Sequence record: PP627281.1
Direction: 5' to 3' (one strand)
Length of the DNA stretch: 57,280 bases
From: Escherichia phage KS_W4
Every line of letters begins with the position of its first letter. The stretch's first letter is position 1. The notes beneath the pieces are model-generated. The model saw only the letters and a program-made list of their open reading frames with translations, was not told the origin of the DNA and made no database searches. Shown here piece after piece: positions 43,651 to 51,713 of the stretch. Made by a program: the position numbers and the translations under genes.

Positions 43651-43833
43651 CTCACACCTCACAGAATGTACATAAACCAGAAATAACCAGCTACGAAAAT
43701 AGCACCCGCGAATAATTTTAAAAGCTCGAACATTGTTCCCTCCGTTAACTTTATGATGTAAGTATAGCAGGACTTGCGATGTATGCAACAACTTTAGACT
43801 TGAAATGCATCTATAAAATAGCACGATTTGCCT

Positions 43834-43862
43834 TTACATCTGATCAGTCTAACTGTACTATT
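43834..43862 (+). promoter_or_regulatory. putative sigma70-type promoter (TTTACA-N17-TACTAT)
   Basis: Hexamers with 17-bp spacing about 30 bp upstream of the ATG at 43892. Confidence 0.35.
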
Positions 43863-43891: not shown

Positions 43892-44116
43892 ATGGTCATG
43901 CTGAATAAAGTATATAGCACAATGGGCGCGGATTATAAAGTTGTACGTCACCCGCGTACTGGCAAATTTGAAGCATATATCCGTCCAATGGGTGAAGGTT
44001 GGATGTATTACGGTACTTATGACGACGCTGAGCAAGCTTATGAAGAAGCGGAAAGTGCAGCGGAAGCATCCGAAATTATGGCAAGGTACGACGTCGATGA
44101 TTACTATCTCAACTAA
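43892..44116 (+). CDS. hypothetical acidic protein (orphan plus-strand gene)
   Basis: 74-aa ORF with strong RBS (ACGGAGGA); own promoter-like element upstream and terminator downstream; opposite orientation to all neighbours. Confidence 0.5.
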   Translation: MVMLNKVYSTMGADYKVVRHPRTGKFEAYIRPMGEGWMYYGTYDDAEQAYEEAESAAEASEIMARYDVDDYYLN

Positions 44117-44118
44117 CA

Positions 44119-44148
44119 ATAAAGGGCCGAAAGGCCCTTTATTTATTT
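44119..44148. terminator. bidirectional rho-independent terminator
   Basis: AAAGGGCC-GAAA-GGCCCTTT followed by ATTTATTTG. Confidence 0.7.
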
Positions 44149-46479
44149 GCTTAAGTCTTTGAAAACACTCTCAATTGACTCGTCTATATACCATCCCAAC
44201 CCCCTGAAATTACGCTTCAATGCATCCTCACGCGTAACCGGAACAAGCGCGCCCATGTCTACAAGTTGTTTGATAGTCAGGTCTGTCGCAGTACCTGCCC
44301 CCATCCTGTGATTCTTGAATGCTGCTAACCCGTAGGTTCTGCGTGTGATAGTTGCCTTCGGAATAATACCGTCAACTCGCAGCTCCTTACGATCACATGC
44401 AATTTTACCGCCAAGATAATCTTTGCAGACCTGGCAAATAGCCTTCACGCGCGTTTCATCATCACCGCCAATAGTACCTTTTTCCCATGCGTTGATCATG
44501 ATGTCTTGCCCATGCGTGACAAAATCTACCGCCCATTGCATGTGATTGGGCTGAACGACAGGATTGATCCAGTTTTCCCCCACTGCTAACAGGGAAGCAA
44601 GACGCAGAGCTTTAAGGTGCGCACGGTTCCACGGCTGACGGATAGCTTCGTCTTTTGTTGCGTTAATGTGTTCATCGCACAACAAGTTAAACTCCCGCTC
44701 GATCCTTGCAGCTTCAGGGCTTAACTGGACGGTAACGGTCTGGAACTTTGCCATTGTCACTAACGTGTGGTTAACAAGATGGCACACCATGTCCTTTAAT
44801 TGCTGTGGCATTGTAATTTCAGGATTCTCGTTTGCAGGAACACGATCCCCTTCATATTGCACAATGTGGAAACGGGACAAGAAACCGTCTTCCATCATTT
44901 CACGTGTTAACGCTTCAAAGAATGTGTCCGGTGTTGTTTCGCCCAAAATGCTGAACGCTACCCCTTCCATCGTTTTGGTATTATTAGCCTTATCAGAATA
45001 TCCGATACCGCCAACAACATCCATCGCACCAGATTTTTGATACACATCTGTAATAGTTTGCTTCAAGGTGTAGTTCGCAGTGCCTGGCTGAGCTGTCGCC
45101 ATACCTTTAATGGTTTTACCAAACTCACCGTTAATATTCACAAACGAAGTATGATCCGCAAAACTTTTACGCAAGGCAGGACCGGAAGCATAGTTAGTCA
45201 TGTCTACAAATTCATGCACTTGCGGCAATTGCTCGCCTACCTGCTTACAAATATAGCTGGGCCCAGCGTGAAGCATTTCTTTACCCACACCTGATCGGGC
45301 AATGAGCACAAAGTAACCGTTCAGCCCTGTGTTGGTGATAGTATTCCATACCTTACCGCATACACCTGACAAGAATGCTAACGATGCAGTGATTGCAATT
45401 TCTTTCACCGGACGCTGCGATGCTTTGTAGATATACTTCGCAAGCTCACCAGCAAGTCCCGGCGGCCATTCAATAGCTGTTGCATCAATGGACGTGCTTT
45501 CTGCAACTACTATTTCACCGGACGGGCTGACTGTGGTTACAGGCATTTCCGTTACCTGCTGCATTGCACTGTGTGCGGCTTGCATACGGGCAGCGTAATC
45601 CCGCGCCAGTGCCGCTACGTTTTCCTGGGCAATGCGTTCACGCTCCATACGACCGCGGCACATGCGCAAACAACGGTCAATATGAACATTGTTCTTATTA
45701 GCCTTCTCACGTTTGCCCAGTGCGCTGTAACGGAACAGACGACGACATTGCTCATTACTTTCTGTGTAGAATGCATACATAGAAATAAGAGCAAGATCTG
45801 CTTCAGACTGGGAAGGGAATCCCATTTCAACCCATTCGCCATTGAATAGGCGTGCATACTTATCCCCGTTGTCCGCTTCAAGTGCGCGCTGGTGAATAGT
45901 TGCATCGTCTTCTACCGGATCTTTTTCTACCAGTTCAATTTCATATGTCTTGCGCTGAAGATCAATTTCATTCACAAGCATAGTAAGGTAATGATCACGT
46001 TCTGCAACTGGTTTGTTATAGACAGGATTACCCGTGCAGATAATAAAACGCTCCTGACTATAAACCTCGACACCATCACGTCGACGTCCTTTGCCGATGT
46101 TTCCTCTTAACCACAGGTGGACGCCCAAGCCTGAGCGACTTACTTCGGTGTAAGTATCGAACGCGGTCATGATCTGTTCAAAGCGGCGCAACTGTTCCGG
46201 CGTCGTGTGCTTCTTGGGATCAGGTTCATTGGTTGCGTTCTTCACATCCAGGTCGATGCAGGTGAACGGGTCTTGCGCAGTAAGCACGAAGCCGATGTAA
46301 GGTTTATTGAAATGAGCGGCGCAACCTTTGGCAGCTTCAAACGTCATTAGCATATCCGGATCGGTAACGTCCGCAGCCATCAAACGTCCAATATCGTTAT
46401 CCCATACAAGCGGCTTTTTATCAGCATCGGCGATCGCCCATTGTGGGAAAGCTTTAATTTCAGCGGGAAACAGTTCCAT
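44143..46479 (-). CDS. primase-polymerase (AEP-type) / helicase replication protein
   Basis: 778 aa; N-terminal AEP-like motifs (CIDLDVKN; SRSGLGVHLW); central P-loop-like ARSGVGKE; large size typical of primase-helicase fusions. Confidence 0.55.
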   Translation of the reverse strand: MELFPAEIKAFPQWAIADADKKPLVWDNDIGRLMAADVTDPDMLMTFEAAKGCAAHFNKPYIGFVLTAQDPFTCIDLDVKNATNEPDPKKHTTPEQLRRFEQIMTAFDTYTEVSRSGLGVHLWLRGNIGKGRRRDGVEVYSQERFIICTGNPVYNKPVAERDHYLTMLVNEIDLQRKTYEIELVEKDPVEDDATIHQRALEADNGDKYARLFNGEWVEMGFPSQSEADLALISMYAFYTESNEQCRRLFRYSALGKREKANKNNVHIDRCLRMCRGRMERERIAQENVAALARDYAARMQAAHSAMQQVTEMPVTTVSPSGEIVVAESTSIDATAIEWPPGLAGELAKYIYKASQRPVKEIAITASLAFLSGVCGKVWNTITNTGLNGYFVLIARSGVGKEMLHAGPSYICKQVGEQLPQVHEFVDMTNYASGPALRKSFADHTSFVNINGEFGKTIKGMATAQPGTANYTLKQTITDVYQKSGAMDVVGGIGYSDKANNTKTMEGVAFSILGETTPDTFFEALTREMMEDGFLSRFHIVQYEGDRVPANENPEITMPQQLKDMVCHLVNHTLVTMAKFQTVTVQLSPEAARIEREFNLLCDEHINATKDEAIRQPWNRAHLKALRLASLLAVGENWINPVVQPNHMQWAVDFVTHGQDIMINAWEKGTIGGDDETRVKAICQVCKDYLGGKIACDRKELRVDGIIPKATITRRTYGLAAFKNHRMGAGTATDLTIKQLVDMGALVPVTREDALKRNFRGLGWYIDESIESVFKDLSK

Positions 46480-46488
46480 TGCAAATCC

Positions 46489-46734
46489 TTACTTAGAAGC
46501 TAGTTTTAACATGGATATAATTGCCGCCTTAATAGTATCAACTGTGTCCTGGACTTCTTGCTTGGACGCAAATGTGTTAACATATTCCACGCTATCCAAA
46601 ACTTTAACGTATAAGCGATAGCCTTCACCTTCCACATGTTCAACAACATAACCGTTGATGTCTAAAGACTTGCCAAAATAGCAACATGAAGATTTTGAAT
46701 TAACCTGTTTCATGAAAGGATCAATTGTAGCCAT
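46489..46734 (-). CDS. hypothetical protein
   Basis: about 81 aa from ATG 46734 with GGAGGA RBS. Confidence 0.4.
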   Translation of the reverse strand: MATIDPFMKQVNSKSSCCYFGKSLDINGYVVEHVEGEGYRLYVKVLDSVEYVNTFASKQEVQDTVDTIKAAIISMLKLASK

Positions 46735-47008
46735 AAATCTGTTTCCTCCGCCATTCTTCATATGCTGAATTATTTGCATCATATACTTCGCAAGCGTCTT
46801 TCATGCTGTCATACAGTCCAAGGAACGTTCGCCTTGTTTCCCCGCTTGCATCTACCCATGTTAATCGGGCGAGCCATTTACCCGTTTTGTAATCGAAAGT
46901 AACGCCCTCACGCCCGCTCACATTCTCCCGAGGCACTCGCGGTTTCCGGCGTGCAAGCCCGCGCCCTTTGAAGTTGCTCCCCGGCACCGTGCGACACTTA
47001 CGACCCAT
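46721..47008 (-). CDS. AP2-like DNA-binding domain protein (putative)
   Basis: about 95 aa from ATG 47008 (AGGAG RBS); basic N-terminus; GVTFDYKTGKWLARL...LGLYDS..A...Y pattern resembling AP2 domains. Confidence 0.4.
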   Translation of the reverse strand: MGRKCRTVPGSNFKGRGLARRKPRVPRENVSGREGVTFDYKTGKWLARLTWVDASGETRRTFLGLYDSMKDACEVYDANNSAYEEWRRKQIYGYN

Positions 47009-47198
47009 AAACCGCTCCTGCATACTGCTTTAAGACAGGCTCTGCAACTTCGCGCACGTAAACGTACACGTTAGCAATTTTAACTTCGCCCGGCAGCTTA
47101 CCGCGTAGCGAACACAACTTGCGACGGCTAAGACCGAAGCGCTTCTCAATTTCTGATGTGGTTATGTATTTAAGATCAAATTCTTTTTGATGGTTCAT
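46998..47198 (-). CDS. putative HTH DNA-binding protein
   Basis: 66-aa ORF with GGAGG RBS; ITTSEIEKRFGLSRRKL resembles a helix-turn-helix; first gene downstream of the repeat-rich non-coding region. Confidence 0.45.
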   Translation of the reverse strand: MNHQKEFDLKYITTSEIEKRFGLSRRKLCSLRGKLPGEVKIANVYVYVREVAEPVLKQYAGAVYGS

Positions 47199-47357
47199 AC
47201 CTACCTCCTAACAGCACTATACACAATCCATAGTAATGCAGCCACAATTATTCCACATGAAGTTATGATGTGAGAGGATTGTTAATATATAACCACATGT
47301 GATGGAAAGTTTTGGGTAGGAATAGTTGGTGCTCCACAGTTTGCGCAATGTGACCGA

Positions 47358-47394
47358 AAGTTTTGTGAGTTTTGCAAAGTTTTGCGAAGTTTTG
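47358..47394. repeat. tandem iteron-like repeats (RAGTTTTG x4, about 10-bp period)
   Basis: Copies begin at 47358, 47367, 47377 and 47387; additional copies at 47307 and about 47445; inverted copy CAAAACT near 47796. Confidence 0.7.
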
Positions 47395-47585
47395 TGGTGC
47401 CACTGTTGCTAAAAACTTTAATAAAAACAATAAGTTGGTGCAGTAAGTTTTTGCGTTTTGGGGTAAAACGCATTTTTTACCCTAACACCCAAATCCCGAC
47501 TGTTAGTAAAAAACGTATATAAATCAATAGCATAGATACTAAATGAATAGTGAATGGAATGGGTAGAAATCCAAATGATGGAAGT

Positions 47586-47600
47586 GGAATAAATTATTCC
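47586..47600. repeat. palindromic operator-like site GGAATAA-A-TTATTCC
   Basis: 15-bp near-perfect palindrome; surrounded by several TGGAAT(A) repeats between 47550 and 47630. Confidence 0.55.
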
Positions 47601-47866
47601 TACTTGATAGAATAATGGAATCGGTACTCCAGAGCGCAAAAACCTAAAACTTTCAGTCAACAGACTAAAAACGGATAGAAACTAAAAGTTAATAAGTAAT
47701 ACCATAAATATATATAAAATAAGGATTTATTAGTAATGTATATAGTACCTATTGGTATTATTTGAATGTTTTTGGGTCATTGTTAAAAAGTCCCAAAACT
47801 CACAAAAAGTGAAAGAATACAAATCGTGACAGGATTGTTAATGGAATATGGTGTATGGATATACAG

Positions 47867-47913
47867 TATTATTCCAGATTCCGGAATAATTGGAATAATG
47901 GAATAAATTATTG
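47867..47913. repeat. second cluster of GGAATAAT/ATTATTCC palindromic sites
   Basis: ATTATTCC (47868-47875) and GGAATAAT (47883-47890) are inverted; followed by GGAATAATGGAATAAATTATTG. Confidence 0.55.
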
Positions 47914-48026
47914 AACTATTGTGATCGGAAGGTATATCAAGCTATAATGCGCTTAATCGCGGGATATTGGAGGAGGACTTTATTGCGCGGTTAACCGGAC
48001 CAGTAGGAGGGCTGGCCCGGAGTAGT

Positions 48027-48353
48027 TTAAAGCTGTACAGGTATGAAGTGGGCTAGCGTATCGTCGGACATAATACCCGACAGTTTTTCGCTTACCCAGT
48101 CGGACCAAATGCTATCCGGTTCCTGGCGATGCACAAACCAGATTTCGGATGTGCCTTCTTTGCGCATCGGTTGCACTTCTGCAAGGAACTTGTCCTGCAT
48201 AAGACGGGTGAAGCATACGCTGGTCATTGGAACCGGCTTTTCGTCTTTATTGTAATAAGGGATTAATATTTTATTTCCGAAGTCGGCAACTTCATAAACT
48301 GTTCCTTTTCGCAAGCCTTGGATGTCAGTGTAAGAGCGAATGAACTTTTTCAT
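48027..48353 (-). CDS. hypothetical protein
   Basis: 108-aa ORF. Confidence 0.4.
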   Translation of the reverse strand: MKKFIRSYTDIQGLRKGTVYEVADFGNKILIPYYNKDEKPVPMTSVCFTRLMQDKFLAEVQPMRKEGTSEIWFVHRQEPDSIWSDWVSEKLSGIMSDDTLAHFIPVQL

Positions 48354-48355
48354 AT

Positions 48356-48532
48356 TTATTTCCTTACGAACACAGAGCCGACGAATAACGTTGATTGAGT
48401 AGCAGCTTGCTCGATTAATTCTCCAACAAGCTGGGACTGGTTTAGAGGTTTAAGGCCTTCTTTGGCGCGTGCTTCATTTACACGACGTTGAAGGTCTTTT
48501 AAGTATTGAGTTGCAAAGCTATCTAATTGCAT
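48356..48532 (-). CDS. hypothetical small protein
   Basis: 58-aa ORF (MQLDSFATQYLKDLQRR...) found by manual translation; stop lies 3 nt before the downstream gene start; below the ORF-track cutoff. Confidence 0.35.
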   Translation of the reverse strand: MQLDSFATQYLKDLQRRVNEARAKEGLKPLNQSQLVGELIEQAATQSTLFVGSVFVRK

Positions 48533-48587
48533 TTTCTTATCCTTAGGGCTCCCGCAGAAGCCCGTTAGTGAACAGTGTGGTTATAGA

Positions 48588-49202
48588 TTATGCGTCCAGT
48601 CCGTTGTATTTGCGCCAGGCGTAGAACTGAATGGCTACCGTTGTCCCGTTGTAAGAAGGCATTGCAGCTTTCATCTCTTTCAGCTCCGGCGTGCGGCCCA
48701 GTTCGGCCAAAAGTTTGTCGCCCATTGCCCACACTTCGGCAGTTTTTCCTTTCAGGGGCTTGCGAGCGCCATTTTTGAAATCACAGCGAGCAGCTTTTAC
48801 ATCCTGTTTTGGCGCGGCAGCTTTTGGCTCTTCAATTTTGATTTCAGAAACCTGCGTGGCAGCTTTTGCGTGTTTCATATCTTTCTCTTCCTCCTGCTCC
48901 AGAGCTTCGAGGCAGCTTTTGACGATTTCCGGATTTACCATCGGGCGCAGTACCGAGGCGCTAGCAGCTGGCGCGGCGGTCGGTGCCGGGACTTTCTGCT
49001 CCGGCTTTTGAGCTTTTTCGTGCTCGCGCAGCACCTGAAGGACTTCCTTTTCAACAATGTAAAAACCAATATCGTCCTGATGGATTAACTGTTCATGTGC
49101 GTCGCGTGCAACCTGACCCCAGCGAGTTTTCAGAGCGCGGCGTGCATTCGTTTTCATGGTGTAGCGCATTTTGTCCTGTTCGCGGTGAGTTACTTTAGAC
49201 AT
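48588..49202 (-). CDS. hypothetical protein, paralog of the 32302-33114 product (shared C-terminal domain)
   Basis: about 204 aa from ATG 49202 (AAAGGAG RBS); C-terminus VWAMGDKLLAELG...TVAIQFYAWRKYNG aligns with the C-terminus of the A/K-rich protein. Confidence 0.5.
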   Translation of the reverse strand: MSKVTHREQDKMRYTMKTNARRALKTRWGQVARDAHEQLIHQDDIGFYIVEKEVLQVLREHEKAQKPEQKVPAPTAAPAASASVLRPMVNPEIVKSCLEALEQEEEKDMKHAKAATQVSEIKIEEPKAAAPKQDVKAARCDFKNGARKPLKGKTAEVWAMGDKLLAELGRTPELKEMKAAMPSYNGTTVAIQFYAWRKYNGLDA

Positions 49203-49232
49203 GGTATAGCTCCTTTCGTTAAAGTTAGTTTG

Positions 49233-49262
49233 CTTATTATTGCCCACCGTGATAGTAGGCAA
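49233..49262 (-). promoter_or_regulatory. putative minus-strand promoter (TTGCCT ... GGGCAATAATAAG)
   Basis: Minus-strand TTGCCTA-N14-GGGCAATAATAAG just upstream of the gene starting at 49202; same motif repeated at 49553-49585. Confidence 0.35.
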
Positions 49263-49275
49263 TGTATAAGAAAAC

Positions 49276-49524
49276 TTACTGGACGATAGCAACGAAATCC
49301 GCGTTTGCGATGTCCATGCTTGCGAAAGCAACGATGCTATAGTCTGTGTCGTTTTCGGCGTTAAACGCTTTGAGGAACTGCTGTACCGCTGCTTTATGGT
49401 TAAGCGTTACGTCGATAGCATAGTCCCAGCTATAGACTTTGCGCTTGCCAAAACCTTTAACTGCAATGCGTGCGCCTTTGGTGTTAGTTGGTGCCAAAAA
49501 TTTAGTGATGATAGAAGTAGCCAT
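49276..49524 (-). CDS. hypothetical protein
   Basis: 82-aa ORF with GAGGA RBS downstream of a promoter-like motif. Confidence 0.45.
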   Translation of the reverse strand: MATSIITKFLAPTNTKGARIAVKGFGKRKVYSWDYAIDVTLNHKAAVQQFLKAFNAENDTDYSIVAFASMDIANADFVAIVQ

Positions 49525-49552
49525 GATGTAATCCTCGTTTTGTTTAAGTTGA

Positions 49553-49585
49553 CTTATTATTGCCCAGTCAGATCAACTAGGCAAG
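49553..49585 (-). promoter_or_regulatory. putative minus-strand promoter (TTGCCT-N17-AATAAT)
   Basis: Minus-strand TTGCCTAGTTGATCTGACTGGGCAATAATAAG upstream of the gene starting at 49524. Confidence 0.4.
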
Positions 49586-49591
49586 ATATAA

Positions 49592-49755
49592 ATCAACTAT
49601 TTTCGCTCACATAATCCAGTGCAGCTTCGAGGAAATAAAATTCTTCCTGCTTATATAAGCTGATTGCCCACTCCAGCTGAGCGCGAGTAAGGTGGCGGTA
49701 TTTGTTGTCGATGCTATAGCTGCGACCGAAGTAAATGATATTGAAGTAGTTGAAC
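49592..49755 (-). CDS. hypothetical small protein
   Basis: 53-aa ORF (MFNYFNIIYFGRSYSIDNKYRHL...) with GGAGG RBS, found by manual translation; first gene of the minus early block. Confidence 0.35.
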
Positions 49756-50073
49756 ATAACGCGCCTCCAAGTGTGGTTAAGAAGTAGTACCGTGTTGCTA
49801 TGGGTACATAATAGCGATGCATTGTGATATTGAATAGGCCAAACGTGCTATTTTGATCTTGTTTTGCATCTAGTGAAAATTATGCTTGCCCTGCATGTTT
49901 AGCACTAATGGCCTAACTAACATCACACGATCTTGTCTACGCGCGTGCATACATACATATAAGGAGCGCCGGACCGGATCGGACCGACCAGGGACACACA
50001 ACCGTCCCTATCTGCCCTGTAAACTGGTCCACGGACCGGTCCAAAATATTTTTATAAAAGATGCAAAAAGGTG

Positions 50074-50102
50074 TAGACATATGATCAATCTAACCCTACT
50101 AT
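50074..50102 (+). promoter_or_regulatory. putative sigma70-type rightward promoter (TAGACA-N17-TACTAT)
   Basis: Hexamers with 17-bp spacing about 50 bp upstream of the first plus-strand early gene (50152). Confidence 0.4.
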
Positions 50103-50151
50103 ATACACATACCGCAAGGGTACTACAAATTAACTTAAAGGGGTTTACATC

Positions 50152-50355
50152 ATGTCTATTCGTAACGTTATCTGTGTAATGGTTGCAAACAATAATTTTG
50201 GTTTCGTAGAAGGTGCAGAGTATAAAATGGATCTTAAGACTCGTTGCATTATTAAAGGTGAAGAGGAATGGCGTGCAGTGGTAGAAGATCGCGGCGATAT
50301 CTACATCTATAGTTCTGATACAATGAAAACTATTGCCGTCTTCGAATTTAACTAA
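50152..50355 (+). CDS. hypothetical early protein
   Basis: 67-aa ORF with AAAGGGG RBS. Confidence 0.45.
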   Translation: MSIRNVICVMVANNNFGFVEGAEYKMDLKTRCIIKGEEEWRAVVEDRGDIYIYSSDTMKTIAVFEFN

Positions 50356-50423
50356 GCTAACTTATACAATGGGCATTAGTACAGTGCCCATTAATAAGCT
50401 AACTAATTATAACGAGGTGTATT

Positions 50424-50609
50424 ATGTCTACGAACACTGTGAAGTCTGTAAATAATAGCAACAGAACATTTAAAGTTATGTACTATGGCGAATATATCGG
50501 AGACGTTACAGCTCCCAGCCGCATCGCTGCGGAAGACTTCGTCCGCGCAGAGATGCAACTTGGAATTGCCGATTTTGCAGCCATTATCGAACTGGTAGAG
50601 GTGTACTAA
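50424..50609 (+). CDS. hypothetical early protein
   Basis: 61-aa ORF with GAGGTG RBS. Confidence 0.45.
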   Translation: MSTNTVKSVNNSNRTFKVMYYGEYIGDVTAPSRIAAEDFVRAEMQLGIADFAAIIELVEVY

Positions 50610-50610
50610 T

Positions 50611-50754
50611 ATGTCACGTAAATACACGCTTACACGCGCACAGCACGCGCTATTATTGCAGGTTATGCGCATGGAGTACGAAGAGACTACATGGGCGCAG
50701 GCCATGCAGACAGGGCGCGAGTTCTACGCGCAACTAATAGCACAAAATGCCTAG
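50611..50754 (+). CDS. hypothetical small protein
   Basis: 47-aa ORF coupled to the upstream stop (TAATATG); manual translation. Confidence 0.3.
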   Translation: MSRKYTLTRAQHALLLQVMRMEYEETTWAQAMQTGREFYAQLIAQNA

Positions 50755-51052
50755 ACAACATGATCGGTCTGGTGGATACTACACACATCAACCAAACAAC
50801 GGGGTAAACAAAATGCGTAGTTTCAAATGTGTAAGCGTAAACGATAATGCTAAGGCTAGTGCAAAGGGTCTGTTCACAGTAGGTAATGTGTATGACTTCA
50901 ACATGGAAAGTTATATACACATGACCCTCACGGGCGTAATGTTCGGCGACGTTGGTGCGGTGCGCTGCGAATTAAACAAGTACACGGAAAAGGAATATGC
51001 TCTTATCAGCCGCTACACGGGCGAGCCGTTAGCTGTGTTCCATGCAGCTTAA
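50747..51052 (+). CDS. hypothetical protein
   Basis: 101-aa ORF; alternative ATG at 50813. Confidence 0.35.
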   Translation: MPRQHDRSGGYYTHQPNNGVNKMRSFKCVSVNDNAKASAKGLFTVGNVYDFNMESYIHMTLTGVMFGDVGAVRCELNKYTEKEYALISRYTGEPLAVFHAA

Positions 51053-51485
51053 GCTATAACGCACACAGCGCCACGCTAGCGAGCTAATGCACAAAGGCAA
51101 TGGTAATGCATTAGCTCGGGCGAAACAGGCGCACAGCGTCGCGCACAGCTCACACAGCTCACACAGACCCACGCAGGCCCAGCCGCGCGACCCCACCCAT
51201 CCTTTTCCAGGTACTTGGAGCGCCGGGGCGTGCCCGTCCATCCTGATAGTAAGTGCTTGTCTAAATCTCACCCATCACATAGCCTATCCACCTACATCCA
51301 TGACCCCACCTACCTTCTTTTTGAATATATTGCGCTCATCCTTTCTAAATATATGGATTTTGGTAGTAAATTCTGAGTCGTCAACGTATAATTCGTCTTG
51401 TAGCTGCTCCATAGCTACCATCTTTAAGCGGATGCAACCAATTTCTATCAATTCTTACCAGTTTTACAGCATCAAGGAGGTATTT

Positions 51486-51713
51486 ATGTGCGACTCCAGT
51501 GCAAGCGCTACACCCAGCACCTCCAGCAATGTGGTTACAGAGGTAAATGCAATGCGATTAGGTCCATATCGCGGCTATTATGGTCGTGCTGCATGGAATG
51601 ACGCTACTCAACGTTTTGAAGGCTGGATTATCTGCCCGGAACGTGTTAAATTTCACTCCGTAAAGAGAAAAATATCGTTCTTAATTTTCAAAAATGTGTC
51701 ACTAAATATGTAG
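51486..51713 (+). CDS. hypothetical protein
   Basis: 75 aa from ATG 51486 with strong RBS AAGGAGG; the longer tracked ORF (51087-) runs through a non-coding-looking region and was trimmed. Confidence 0.45.
   Translation: MCDSSASATPSTSSNVVTEVNAMRLGPYRGYYGRAAWNDATQRFEGWIICPERVKFHSVKRKISFLIFKNVSLNM

What the first reader, a model, noticed from the sequence alone, without database searches (positions are those of the whole stretch)
49823..50151. Divergent control region with GGACCG repeats and a perfect GGACCGGTCC palindrome
Between the leftward and rightward early blocks lie GGACCG motifs (49971, 49981, 50033), a perfect 10-bp palindrome GGACCGGTCC (50033-50042) and an AGGGAC/GTCCCT hairpin (49990-50008). 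These sit just upstream of a rightward promoter-like element (TAGACA-N17-TACTAT, 50074-50102), whose -10 matches that of the 43834 promoter. The layout resembles operator sites governing a bidirectional early switch, though no repressor gene is evident.
Basis: seen in the sequence. Interest (0 to 1): 0.4.

Follow-up and report, generated by a model that had tools for sequence, protein, structure and literature searches.

The report
Early promoter region with decayed repeats
The GGACCG repeats and the palindrome are real but are chance by-products of a fast-changing, dispensable repeat cassette that sits between two strongly conserved early promoters of a Seurat-like E. coli phage, so they are very unlikely to be repressor-binding sites.

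Summary
The window is a Seuratvirus (Queuovirinae) genome; its closest relative is phage SeppeHuegi. The rightward promoter TAGACA-N17-TACTAT is invariant in 11 relatives.

The GGACCG words, the AGGGAC/GTCCCT hairpin and the GGACCGGTCC palindrome all lie in the one hypervariable part of the spacer, 49963-50042. That part is 39% identical and 46% gapped across relatives, against 89-94% identity in the flanks. The palindrome is already broken in the 96.5%-identical spacer of SeppeHuegi. The whole segment is missing from at least 10 related phages and contigs.

The segment is a decayed copy of a 19-bp iteron-like unit, GYGCCGRA-NN-TACCAGGK. Seuratviruses carry 0-4 tandem copies. Five of the six Nonagvirus genomes read through this locus carry three; JenP1 has none. 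The second GGACCG is simply positions -6 to -1 of the single unit left in this phage.

The conserved control elements are two divergent sigma-70-type promoters, each with an upstream TAGCAC-N3-TGGCC-type box. By homology, the region lies in the middle of a ~3.65-kb direct terminal repeat.

The operator reading is not supported. The cassette is most likely an accessory protein-binding array. Its function is unresolved. Interest is low to moderate.

The parts
49758..50151 (.). Divergent non-coding spacer (394 bp) between the leftward and rightward early gene blocks
   Evidence: ORF list. Relatives SeppeHuegi and SA126VB are annotated with the same layout.
49808..49836 (-). Leftward promoter P_L: TATTCA-N17-TATTAT (-35 at 49831-49836, -10 at 49808-49813)
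   Evidence: Pattern match. Both hexamers are invariant in 12 phages, while the leader just downstream carries a 5-bp indel. The architecture matches the rightward promoter of Seurat and WildeMaa. Predicted, not mapped.
49835..49850 (-). Upstream box TAGCACGTTTGGCCTA, abutting the -35 of P_L
   Evidence: Exact match. The same box type precedes the promoters at 43819 and 50738 and the Seurat/9g rightward promoters. Invariant in relatives.
49900..49942 (+). Mirror-image box TAGCACTAATGGCCTA followed by a promoter-like relic (TAACTA-N17-CTACGC) with no usable -10
   Evidence: With the P_L box it forms the 28-nt, 75% complementary inverted repeat 49823-49850 / 49900-49927. RNA fold of the minus strand gives z = -4.2. 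Nearly invariant in relatives.
49862..49871 (+). TTTTGCATCT, left arm of a perfect 10-bp inverted repeat whose partner is at 50059-50068
   Evidence: I3. Both arms are invariant in relatives. A similar ATGCATCT lies upstream of the 43834 promoter.
49963..50042 (+).
   Evidence: Measured over 49966-50042: 39% identical and 46% gapped against 11 relatives, versus 89-94% identity in the flanks. Absent, 1-4 units, or rearranged in relatives.
49966..49977 (+). Remnant of an iteron unit, GCGCCGGACCGG; contains the first GGACCG
   Evidence: Aligns with GCGCCGGACCAG of SLUR25 and SA126VB and with GCGCCGGACAGG of SeppeHuegi and ECP2304.
49976..49993 (+). The single recognisable iteron-like unit, GATCGGACCGACCAGGG (consensus GYGCCGRA-NN-TACCAGGK). 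The second GGACCG is its positions -6 to -1.
   Evidence: Logo from 35 distinct units of two phage genera. G(-6), A(0), C(+1) and G(+4) are invariant and the other three core positions are 34 of 35. Units listed.
50023..50042 (+). ACTGGTCCA/ACCGGTCCA 12-bp local duplication; it creates GGTCC-AC-GGACC-GGTCC and the 10-bp palindrome
   Evidence: D6. SLUR25 has only CTGGTCC here. The centre of the palindrome varies (CCGG, CCAG, CTGG, CAGG) in the closest relatives.
50043..50073 (+). A/T-rich tract (83% A+T) with AGATGCAAAA at 50059-50068; UP-element-like region upstream of P_R
   Evidence: Essentially invariant in 12 phages.
50074..50102 (+). Rightward promoter P_R: TAGACA-N17-TACTAT, with a GATC in the spacer
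   Evidence: Hexamers invariant. The spacer TGATCA.TCTAAC is shared with the 43833 promoter. Predicted, not mapped.
49593..49757 (-). First leftward gene (54 aa, PHROG 18706, unknown function)
50152..50355 (+). First rightward gene (67 aa, no family match)
47587..51236 (.). Predicted direct terminal repeat containing the whole control region (inferred by homology only)
   Evidence: ECP2304 carries an exact 3,695-bp repeat at both record ends; it maps to window 47587 to ~51236. Homology with several relatives breaks exactly at 51237. The window itself does not show both ends.

Best explanation
The interval is the divergent early-promoter region of a Seuratvirus. It has three parts.

(1) An almost invariant left module. 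It carries the leftward sigma-70-type promoter P_L (TATTCA-N17-TATTAT) with a TAGCAC-N3-TGGCC box against its -35. A mirrored, decayed copy of that box and promoter lies next to it.

(2) An almost invariant right module. It carries an A/T-rich UP-like tract and the rightward promoter P_R (TAGACA-N17-TACTAT).

(3) Between them, a GC-rich cassette built from a 19-bp iteron-like unit, GYGCCGRA-NN-TACCAGGK. The cassette expands, contracts, inverts and is lost among close relatives. In this phage it has decayed to one degenerate unit, one remnant and a 12-bp local duplication.

The GGACCG words, the small hairpin and the GGACCGGTCC palindrome are side products of that decay. They are not binding sites in their own right.

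Shown: the sequence facts, the conservation pattern, the unit family and its distribution, and its dispensability.

Inferred: host RNA polymerase starts early transcription in both directions from P_L and P_R. Any regulator most likely acts through the conserved TAGCAC boxes or AGATGCAAAA elements. The ACCAGG-core units are accessory binding sites for a conserved phage or host DNA-binding protein that tunes these promoters, or possibly an auxiliary origin, without being required for growth.
For: Identity and layout.

Conservation: the flanks are 0.89 and 0.94 identical; the centre is 0.39 identical and 0.46 gapped; the promoter hexamers are 1.00.

Motifs not conserved.

Cassette copy number:
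- Absent in yong3, RCIP0359, Skure, slur01, SA80RD and L022 and in L038, L043, L056 and L072.
- Replaced by other sequence in Seurat, WildeMaa and JenP1.
- 2 units in L063; 3 in Greed and SLUR25; 4 in CAjan and Dru_SM1.

Same unit at the syntenic spot in Nonagvirus: three copies 26-27 bp apart in BRET, 9g, HdK1, JenP2 and SE1, although the flanks do not align.

Logo: G(-6) and four of the six ACCAGG positions are invariant, the other two are 34 of 35, and the spacers are variable.

The empty site ATATAA-AGCTG-CCAAAATA keeps the AGCTG of the cassette's right end, so it is a deletion derivative.

Promoter family with shared upstream box and spacer.

The 9g authors independently predicted divergent Pl and Pr promoters in the homologous spacer (PMC4276943).
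Against: No transcription start, protein binding or deletion phenotype has been measured for any of these phages. The papers found do not cover it.

P_L and P_R have weak -35 hexamers (3-4 of 6). They are supported only by conservation and paralogy.

No candidate binder for the ACCAGG unit was identified. No gene co-varies with the cassette, and no DNA-binding domain was found nearby.

The cluster of GGACCG is statistically unusual for that word. A lineage-specific new site therefore cannot be formally excluded.

With only one degenerate unit, the cassette may be functionless in this particular phage.
Confidence: 0.62

Rival explanations
1. GGACCG repeats and the GGACCGGTCC palindrome are operator sites for a phage repressor that governs a bidirectional early switch.
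For: The motifs are present and clustered beyond chance for that word. One of them is a perfect dyad. They lie between divergent promoters.
Against: They are not conserved even in spacers that are 90-96% identical. The whole segment is absent from at least 10 relatives. The sites lie 32-103 bp upstream of the P_R -35 and more than 130 bp from P_L, so they do not overlap either core promoter. Perfect 10-bp palindromes are no more frequent than chance in this genome (54 against 64 expected). No repressor-like protein was found nearby.
Confidence: 0.04
2. The ACCAGG-core units are iterons of a replication origin. The phage primase-helicase, or another initiator, binds them. The adjacent 83% A+T tract melts, helped by transcription from P_R, as at lambda ori or the T7 primary origin. 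The origin would be auxiliary, because other origins or recombination-dependent replication can replace it.
For: Tandem direct repeats with an invariant core lie next to an invariant A/T-rich tract at the divergence point of transcription. The units are conserved across two genera. The phage encodes an NrS-1-like primase-polymerase fused to a DUF3987 helicase, a class that starts synthesis at specific sites. The minimum of cumulative GC skew is near 46-48 kb, but this is confounded by gene orientation.
Against: The array is missing from many viable phages, and their primase is up to 99% identical to this one (Skure). This phage has one degenerate unit. Spacings of 26-27 or 35-37 bp are half-integral helical turns, unlike the in-phase iterons of known origins. 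No DnaA or IHF sites were found.
Confidence: 0.15
3. The cassette is a functionless minisatellite. It would be kept only by slippage and unequal recombination between the two terminal-repeat copies.
For: Copy number ranges from 0 to 4. There are inversions, deletions and micro-duplications among near-identical phages. Complete loss is the commonest state in Seuratvirus. No partner gene was found.
Against: The same 19-bp unit survives at the syntenic site in two genera whose flanking non-coding DNA no longer aligns. The ACCAGG core and G(-6) are invariant or nearly so (34-35 of 35 units at every position), while the spacers vary freely. Five of the six Nonagvirus genomes read at this locus, plus one IMG/VR contig, keep three units at fixed spacing.
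Confidence: 0.14
4. The units are recognition sites for the small terminase, or otherwise serve formation of the terminal repeat.
For: In Nonagvirus the array lies 215-280 bp inside the right boundary of the terminal repeat. That boundary was found at the same nucleotide in two ways: by read starts in 9g (PMC4276943) and from the exact 3,367-bp repeat of HdK1.
Against: In Seuratvirus the predicted boundaries are 1.24 kb to the right and 2.4 kb to the left of the unit. The array is absent in many phages, including the Nonagvirus JenP1, which keeps the boundary sequence. The type of boundary segment does not co-vary with the cassette.
Confidence: 0.04
5. The array is transcribed and acts as a repeat RNA decoy against a host defence, in the manner of the pseudo-ToxI repeats of phage PhiTE.
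For: It is a non-coding intergenic tandem repeat of 35-37 nt in Seuratvirus, always in one orientation. Its copy number is variable, it is dispensable on K-12, and it lies in an early region. A promoter-like element sits 15-25 bp upstream in both genera. Precedent: PMC3475682.
Against: There is no Rfam match, ToxI included, on the arrays of CAjan, 9g or SLUR25. No similar array was found in 5,426 E. coli genomes or in the species-representative genome scan, apart from two contaminant contigs. RNA fold z-scores are only -1.6 to -2.0. The invariant part is ACCAGG, not an A-rich cleavage site. The upstream promoter relic in Seuratvirus lacks a -10. The Nonagvirus period is only 26-27 nt.
Confidence: 0.03

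Closest known systems
Pl/Pr divergent promoter spacer of phage 9g (Kulikov et al. 2014, PMC4276943)
   Same: It is the syntenic non-coding spacer between the early and late arms of a Queuovirinae genome. Divergent sigma-70-type promoters are predicted there. It lies in or at the terminal repeat, and it contains the same ACCAGG-core units.
   Different: The 9g spacer is 603 bp and includes the physical genome end. It has three regular units that abut a TAGACA promoter. Here the spacer is 394 bp and 1.2 kb from the predicted end, with one decayed unit. The units themselves are not mentioned in the parts of that paper I searched.
Lambda-type operator sets (OR/OL) of a bidirectional PR/PRM switch
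   Same: Repeated short sites lie between divergent promoters.
   Different: Lambda operators are conserved, dyad-symmetric, overlap the core promoters and sit next to their repressor genes. None of these holds for GGACCG.
Iterons of phage and plasmid origins (lambda ori, P4 ori/crr, P1 oriR)
   Same: Tandem direct repeats of about 19 bp with an invariant core lie next to an A/T-rich tract, and copy number differs between relatives.
   Different: This cassette is dispensable. Its spacing is not in helical phase. No initiator link has been shown. Only one unit remains in this phage.
Pre-early and early promoter clusters inside long terminal repeats (T5 first-step-transfer region)
   Same: Strong host-type promoters and small genes of unknown function are duplicated in a several-kb direct terminal repeat (DTR in Queuovirinae: PMC10484667; T5 comparison from PMC13250531).
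   Different: The repeat here is 3.4-3.7 kb and carries a divergent promoter pair at its centre. Two-step DNA entry is not known for these phages.
Pseudo-ToxI repeats of phage PhiTE (Blower et al. 2012, PMC3475682)
   Same: A non-coding intergenic tandem repeat of about 36 nt in a phage, with a labile copy number.
   Different: No sequence or covariance-model similarity to ToxI was found, no cognate host array was found, and transcription has not been shown.

Membership tests
Repressor operator set of a bidirectional switch | The sites are conserved among related phages that share the promoters | tested here: not met
   Across 11 relatives the 49966-50042 part of the cassette is 39% identical and 46% gapped, while the promoter hexamers are 100% identical. 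The palindrome is unique to this phage.
Repressor operator set of a bidirectional switch | The sites overlap or abut the -35/-10 elements they control | tested here: not met
   GGACCG sites end at 49976, 49986 and 50042. The P_R -35 starts at 50074 and the P_L -35 ends at 49836.
Repressor operator set of a bidirectional switch | A cognate DNA-binding repressor gene is present in the region | tested here: inconclusive
   Pfam and PHROG found no DNA-binding domain in 18 flanking small ORFs. The only hints are weak sub-threshold AP2-like hits at 46721-47023 and 43892-44116. The former does not co-vary with the cassette.
Sigma-70-type early promoter (P_R and P_L) | -35 and -10 hexamers with 16-18 bp spacing, conserved in relatives | tested here: met
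   TAGACA-N17-TACTAT and TATTCA-N17-TATTAT. Both are invariant in 12 phages. Paralogous copies exist.
Sigma-70-type early promoter (P_R and P_L) | A mapped transcription start | not testable with these tools
   No transcript data were found for Seuratvirus or Nonagvirus.
Iteron array (origin or regulatory) | Two or more tandem direct repeats with a conserved core | tested here: not met
   Met in relatives, with 2-4 units in Seuratvirus and 3 in Nonagvirus. This window has one degenerate unit plus a remnant.
Iteron array (origin or regulatory) | The core is conserved beyond neutral expectation across lineages | tested here: met
   Every position of ACCAGG and G(-6) is identical in 34-35 of 35 distinct units from two genera whose flanks do not align.
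Iteron array (origin or regulatory) | Bound by a cognate initiator or regulator | not testable with these tools
   No co-varying gene was found. Binding needs EMSA or pull-down.
Iteron array (origin or regulatory) | Retained in all functional replicons of the group (as an essential origin would be) | tested here: not met
   Absent from at least 10 Seuratvirus genomes or contigs, and replaced in Seurat, WildeMaa and JenP1.
Direct terminal repeat region | The same sequence is present at both physical ends of virion DNA | not testable with these tools
   Shown for relatives: ECP2304 3,695 bp; HdK1 3,367 bp, ending at the nucleotide reported as the 9g physical end. The window shows one copy only, so raw reads are needed.
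Type III antitoxin mimic (pseudo-ToxI-like RNA) | Sequence or structure similarity to a host antitoxin repeat array | tested here: not met
   No Rfam hit. No E. coli genome match.

The most novel reading that the evidence does not exclude
The ACCAGG-core cassette could be an accessory, fast-evolving non-coding counter-defence or copy-control element carried in the terminal repeat. It might act as a transcribed repeat RNA or as a DNA decoy that titrates a host factor. Gain, loss and copy-number change would then reflect an arms race with particular E. coli strains. This would explain why it is conserved in core sequence yet dispensable on K-12.
Probability: 0.06. Interest if true: 0.7.

Novelty: new member of a known kind. 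Interest (0 to 1): 0.22.

Why it matters
For annotation, the result moves attention away from eye-catching but unconserved GC-rich words. It points instead to the elements that are actually under selection: two early promoters, their TAGCAC-N3-TGGCC boxes and the AGATGCAAAA elements.

It also defines a repeat family that I did not find described in the papers searched. The family is shared by the two coliphage genera of Queuovirinae and sits in the centre of the terminal repeat. Natural alleles with 0, 1, 2, 3 and 4 units exist in otherwise near-identical phages. That is a ready-made allelic series for testing whether the array affects early transcription, replication start or host range.

These phages are used in the BASEL collection and in work on 7-deazaguanine DNA modification, so a map of their early control region is of practical use. 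It does not bear on any long-standing open question.

Tried and rejected
- Known RNA families: none in the whole window or in the region at a permissive threshold. None on the arrays of relatives. No tRNAs.
- Host REP/BIME origin of the GC-rich units: no match in 5,426 E. coli genomes.
- Dispersed repeat within the phage: the unit occurs only at this locus.
- Dcm/EcoRII (CCWGG) relevance of the ACCAGG core: CCWGG is not avoided in the genome, 74 against 68 expected.
- Search for a partner gene by co-occurrence. The AP2-like 100-aa ORF is present in both cassette-plus and cassette-minus phages. No window ORF is shared with CAjan and 9g but missing from Skure. The syntenic small genes upstream of the primase in 9g and in this phage are unrelated.
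- Link between the cassette and the type of terminal-repeat boundary: none.
- Hairpin or RNA structure in the cassette: z-scores from -1.2 to -2.0, and pairings not conserved.
- DnaA and IHF sites: none.
- By eye the 58-aa ORF 48356-48532 looked ribbon-helix-helix-like. It has no support from PDB sequences or Pfam.
- Literature on Seuratvirus/Nonagvirus promoters, origins or transcriptomes: nothing beyond the 9g promoter prediction.
- My recollection that the ToxI repeat contains GAAAT.CAGGTG, like the unit, could not be checked in the texts available. It is not used as evidence.

Full report
WHAT THE WINDOW IS. A 2-kb stretch around the finding matches 34 phage records, all Seurat-like E. coli siphoviruses (Queuovirinae, genus Seuratvirus). 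The best match is phage SeppeHuegi at 94% identity over 2 kb and 96.5% over the spacer itself. Genes run rightward from 13 to about 21.3 kb (terminase and structural genes). They run leftward from about 23.4 to 49.76 kb (replication and 7-deazaguanine modification genes), then rightward again from 50.15 kb to the end. The finding is therefore the single divergence point of the genome. It is a 394-bp non-coding spacer, 49758-50151, between a 54-aa leftward ORF and a 67-aa rightward ORF. Annotated relatives have the same layout.

THE OBSERVATION. GGACCG is not enriched in the genome: 18 copies against 13.2 expected. Four hits within 72 bp is unusual for that word: 0 of 1000 Markov simulations reached 4 hits, and 1 of 1000 reached 3. 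The clustering has a simple origin in two local micro-duplications, CGGACCGG/CGGACCGA 10 bp apart and ACTGGTCCA/ACCGGTCCA 12 bp apart. Perfect 10-bp palindromes are ordinary here, 54 seen against 64 +/- 7 expected. The GC-rich segment does not fold better than shuffled sequence (z = -1.24).

CONSERVATION DECIDES THE INTERPRETATION. I aligned the spacer with 11 relatives and measured identity to the window by segment.
- Left flank: 0.89.
- Right flank: 0.94.
- Both promoter hexamer pairs: 1.00.
- Central part 49966-50042: 0.39 identical and 0.46 gapped.

The first GGACCG reads GGACAG in SeppeHuegi and ECP2304. The palindrome reads GGACCAGTCC, GGACTGGTCC and GAACAGGTCC in SeppeHuegi, ECP2304 and SA126VB. 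The hairpin arms do not stay complementary.

In yong3, RCIP0359, Skure, slur01 and SA80RD, one IMG/VR contig and four metagenome contigs, the whole segment is replaced by five bases (ATATAA-AGCTG-CCAAAATA). Those five bases match the right end of the cassette in SLUR25-type phages (…GTAAGCTGGTCCAAAATA). The empty site is therefore a deletion derivative, not an unoccupied insertion site.

WHAT THE CENTRAL SEGMENT IS. Where the segment is long, it resolves into tandem units of the form GYGCCGGA-NNN-ACCAGG-K followed by a variable GC-rich stretch. The period is 27-37 bp. There are four units in CAjan and Dru_SM1, three in Greed and SLUR25, and two in a metagenome contig. In another contig one unit is inverted.

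A search with the CAjan array found one short match outside the genus, in the Nonagvirus phage BRET. It lies in BRET's own divergent spacer, as three regular units 26-27 bp apart. The same three units are present in 9g, HdK1, JenP2, SE1 and an IMG/VR contig. JenP1 has a different insert there.

A logo from 35 distinct units gives G-Y-G-C-C-G-R-A-N-N-T-ACCAGG-K. G(-6) and four of the six ACCAGG positions are invariant. The other two are identical in 34 of 35 units, and the spacers are free to vary.

In the window only one unit is recognisable, GATCGGACCGACCAGGG at 49976-49993. The second GGACCG is its positions -6 to -1. The first GGACCG belongs to a truncated unit, GCGCCGGACCGG (SLUR25 has GCGCCGGACCAG). 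The palindrome comes from the 12-bp duplication at the right end.

The unit occurs nowhere else in the window. It has no match in 5,426 E. coli genomes. In a scan of species-representative bacterial genomes it turned up only in two short contaminant contigs.

WHAT IS ACTUALLY CONSERVED. The rightward promoter TAGACA-N17-TACTAT is preceded by an invariant 83% A+T tract.

A leftward promoter, TATTCA-N17-TATTAT at 49808-49836 on the minus strand, is equally invariant. The leader just downstream of it varies and carries a 5-bp indel, as expected beyond a start site. Its -35 is abutted by the box TAGCACGTTTGGCCTA.

The same box-plus-promoter architecture recurs at 43819-43861 and at 50738-50780 in the window. 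It also forms the rightward promoter of Seurat and WildeMaa (…CACGTTTGGCC-TAGACA-N17-TACTAT) and appears next to the third unit of 9g (TAGCAC-ATACA-TAGACA).

A second, mirrored box at 49900-49915 heads a promoter-like relic with no usable -10. Together the two boxes make the 28-nt imperfect inverted repeat 49823-49850 / 49900-49927 (minus-strand RNA fold z = -4.2). With almost no variation among relatives, covariation cannot be assessed.

A perfect 10-bp inverted pair, TTTTGCATCT at 49862 and AGATGCAAAA at 50059, is also invariant. If a regulator acts here, these elements are better candidates for its sites than GGACCG. No DNA-binding domain was found in 18 neighbouring small ORFs. Two small proteins give weak, sub-threshold AP2-like hits.

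GENOMIC SETTING. ECP2304, a close relative, carries an exact 3,695-bp repeat at both ends of its record. Mapped to the window, it spans 47587 to about 51236, so the control region lies at its centre. Homology with several relatives breaks exactly at 51237.

In Nonagvirus, HdK1 has a 3,367-bp terminal repeat. Its right boundary is the very nucleotide that the 9g paper reported as the physical genome end from read starts (PMC4276943). There the units lie 215-280 bp inside that boundary. Direct terminal repeats are also documented for another Queuovirinae lineage (PMC10484667). For this window the repeat is an inference from homology.

MECHANISM. Most likely, host RNA polymerase starts early transcription in both directions from P_L and P_R. 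The cassette between them is an accessory array of protein-binding sites that has largely decayed in this phage.

I rank a modulatory binding array above the alternatives because the core is under selection across genera, yet the array is dispensable. In Seurat-type phages the same slot is filled by different sequence that includes a perfect ATGTCA-N5-TGACAT dyad. This suggests an exchangeable regulatory slot.

An auxiliary origin is the strongest rival. Iterons lie next to an A/T-rich tract, and the phage encodes an NrS-1-like primase-polymerase/helicase. Against it stand the frequent loss of the array in phages with near-identical primase, spacings that are out of helical phase, and the absence of DnaA or IHF sites.

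A packaging role fits Nonagvirus geometry but not Seuratvirus, and JenP1 keeps the boundary without the array. A neutral minisatellite does not explain the invariant core. An RNA decoy in the manner of pseudo-ToxI (PMC3475682) is not excluded, but it found no support.

VERDICT. The operator interpretation is not supported. The promoter call is supported. The underlying feature is an ordinary divergent early-promoter region containing the remnant of an iteron-like repeat family, which I did not find described in the papers searched. The family is shared by Seuratvirus and Nonagvirus. Interest is low to moderate, and its main value is the natural 0-4 copy allelic series.

Noticed in passing
window 47587-51236 (by homology to L019/L020): The relative ECP2304 has an exact 3,695-bp direct terminal repeat that maps to this span. 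Homology with several relatives breaks exactly at 51237. The last ~120 bp before that point (51114-51236) exist in at least two unrelated versions among relatives.
   Followed up: partly
window 47200-47980: A ~780-bp AT-rich non-coding stretch holds about seven copies of AAGTTTTG-like words (47305-47460) and many GGAAT/ATTCC-rich repeats (47540-47920). The predicted left boundary of the terminal repeat (47587) falls inside it. It may hold packaging or end-recognition signals.
   Followed up: no
L016/L018 position 874 (9g record 28,243; HdK1 record 3,367): The physical end of 9g inferred from read starts and the boundary of HdK1's terminal repeat coincide to the nucleotide (…GCCGCGGGGCGGCTC|TTAGATC). 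Three ACGTTAYARTA-like repeats lie just inside. A similar GC-rich word (GCGCCGGGGCGTGCC) precedes the predicted boundary in the window at about 51220.
   Followed up: partly
L013 1290-1560 (WildeMaa) and L012 950-1220 (SA80RD): A ~270-nt purine-rich non-coding stretch lies directly downstream of the rightward promoter in these two phages. It has no counterpart in the window and no Rfam match. It could be a long leader or a small RNA.
   Followed up: partly
L014 ~1213-1232 (Seurat) and the matching place in L013: In Seurat-type phages the slot occupied by the ACCAGG units holds different sequence, with a perfect ATGTCA-N5-TGACAT dyad about 35 bp upstream of the promoter's -35. This is a better operator candidate than anything in the window's cassette.
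   Followed up: no
window 43819-43861, 50074-50102, 50752-50780: Three promoters of the family carry a GATC (Dam site) at the same place in the spacer, 3-4 nt after the -35. The G of GATC is followed by A. From my own recollection (not checked here), CAjan's 7-deazaguanine modification targets a GA context. If so, these promoters may differ between virion and replicated DNA.
   Followed up: no
window 43892-44116 (+) and 46721-47023 (-): Two small proteins (74 and 100 aa) give weak, sub-threshold AP2-domain hits in Pfam. The 74-aa one also hits plant ERF/AP2 structures at marginal E-values. It sits on the opposite strand inside the leftward block and has its own promoter of the early family.
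   Followed up: partly
window 44143-46479 (-): The 778-aa 'primase' combines an NrS-1-type primase-polymerase helix-bundle domain with a DUF3987 helicase-like region. It is 99% identical to that of Skure but only 77% identical to CAjan's.
   Followed up: no
L065 (metagenome contig PPYE01311188.1): One iteron unit is inverted relative to SLUR25 (CCGGATC-TACCAGGGG-GATCCGG becomes CCGGATC-CCCTGGTA-GATCCGG). The flip occurs between 7-bp inverted repeats and shows how recombinogenic the cassette is.
   Followed up: no
L113 (Dyella japonica contig_62, 1,036 bp) and L181 (Sulfoacidibacillus thermotolerans contig56, 3,487 bp): Short contigs in assemblies of unrelated bacteria carry the Nonagvirus three-unit array with its flanks. 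They are almost certainly coliphage contamination of those assemblies.
   Followed up: no
window 51087-51713 (+): The 208-aa ORF spans the GC-rich non-coding boundary region. Its 5' part is probably not a gene. A real gene may start near the ATG at 51486, preceded by AAGGAGG.
   Followed up: no
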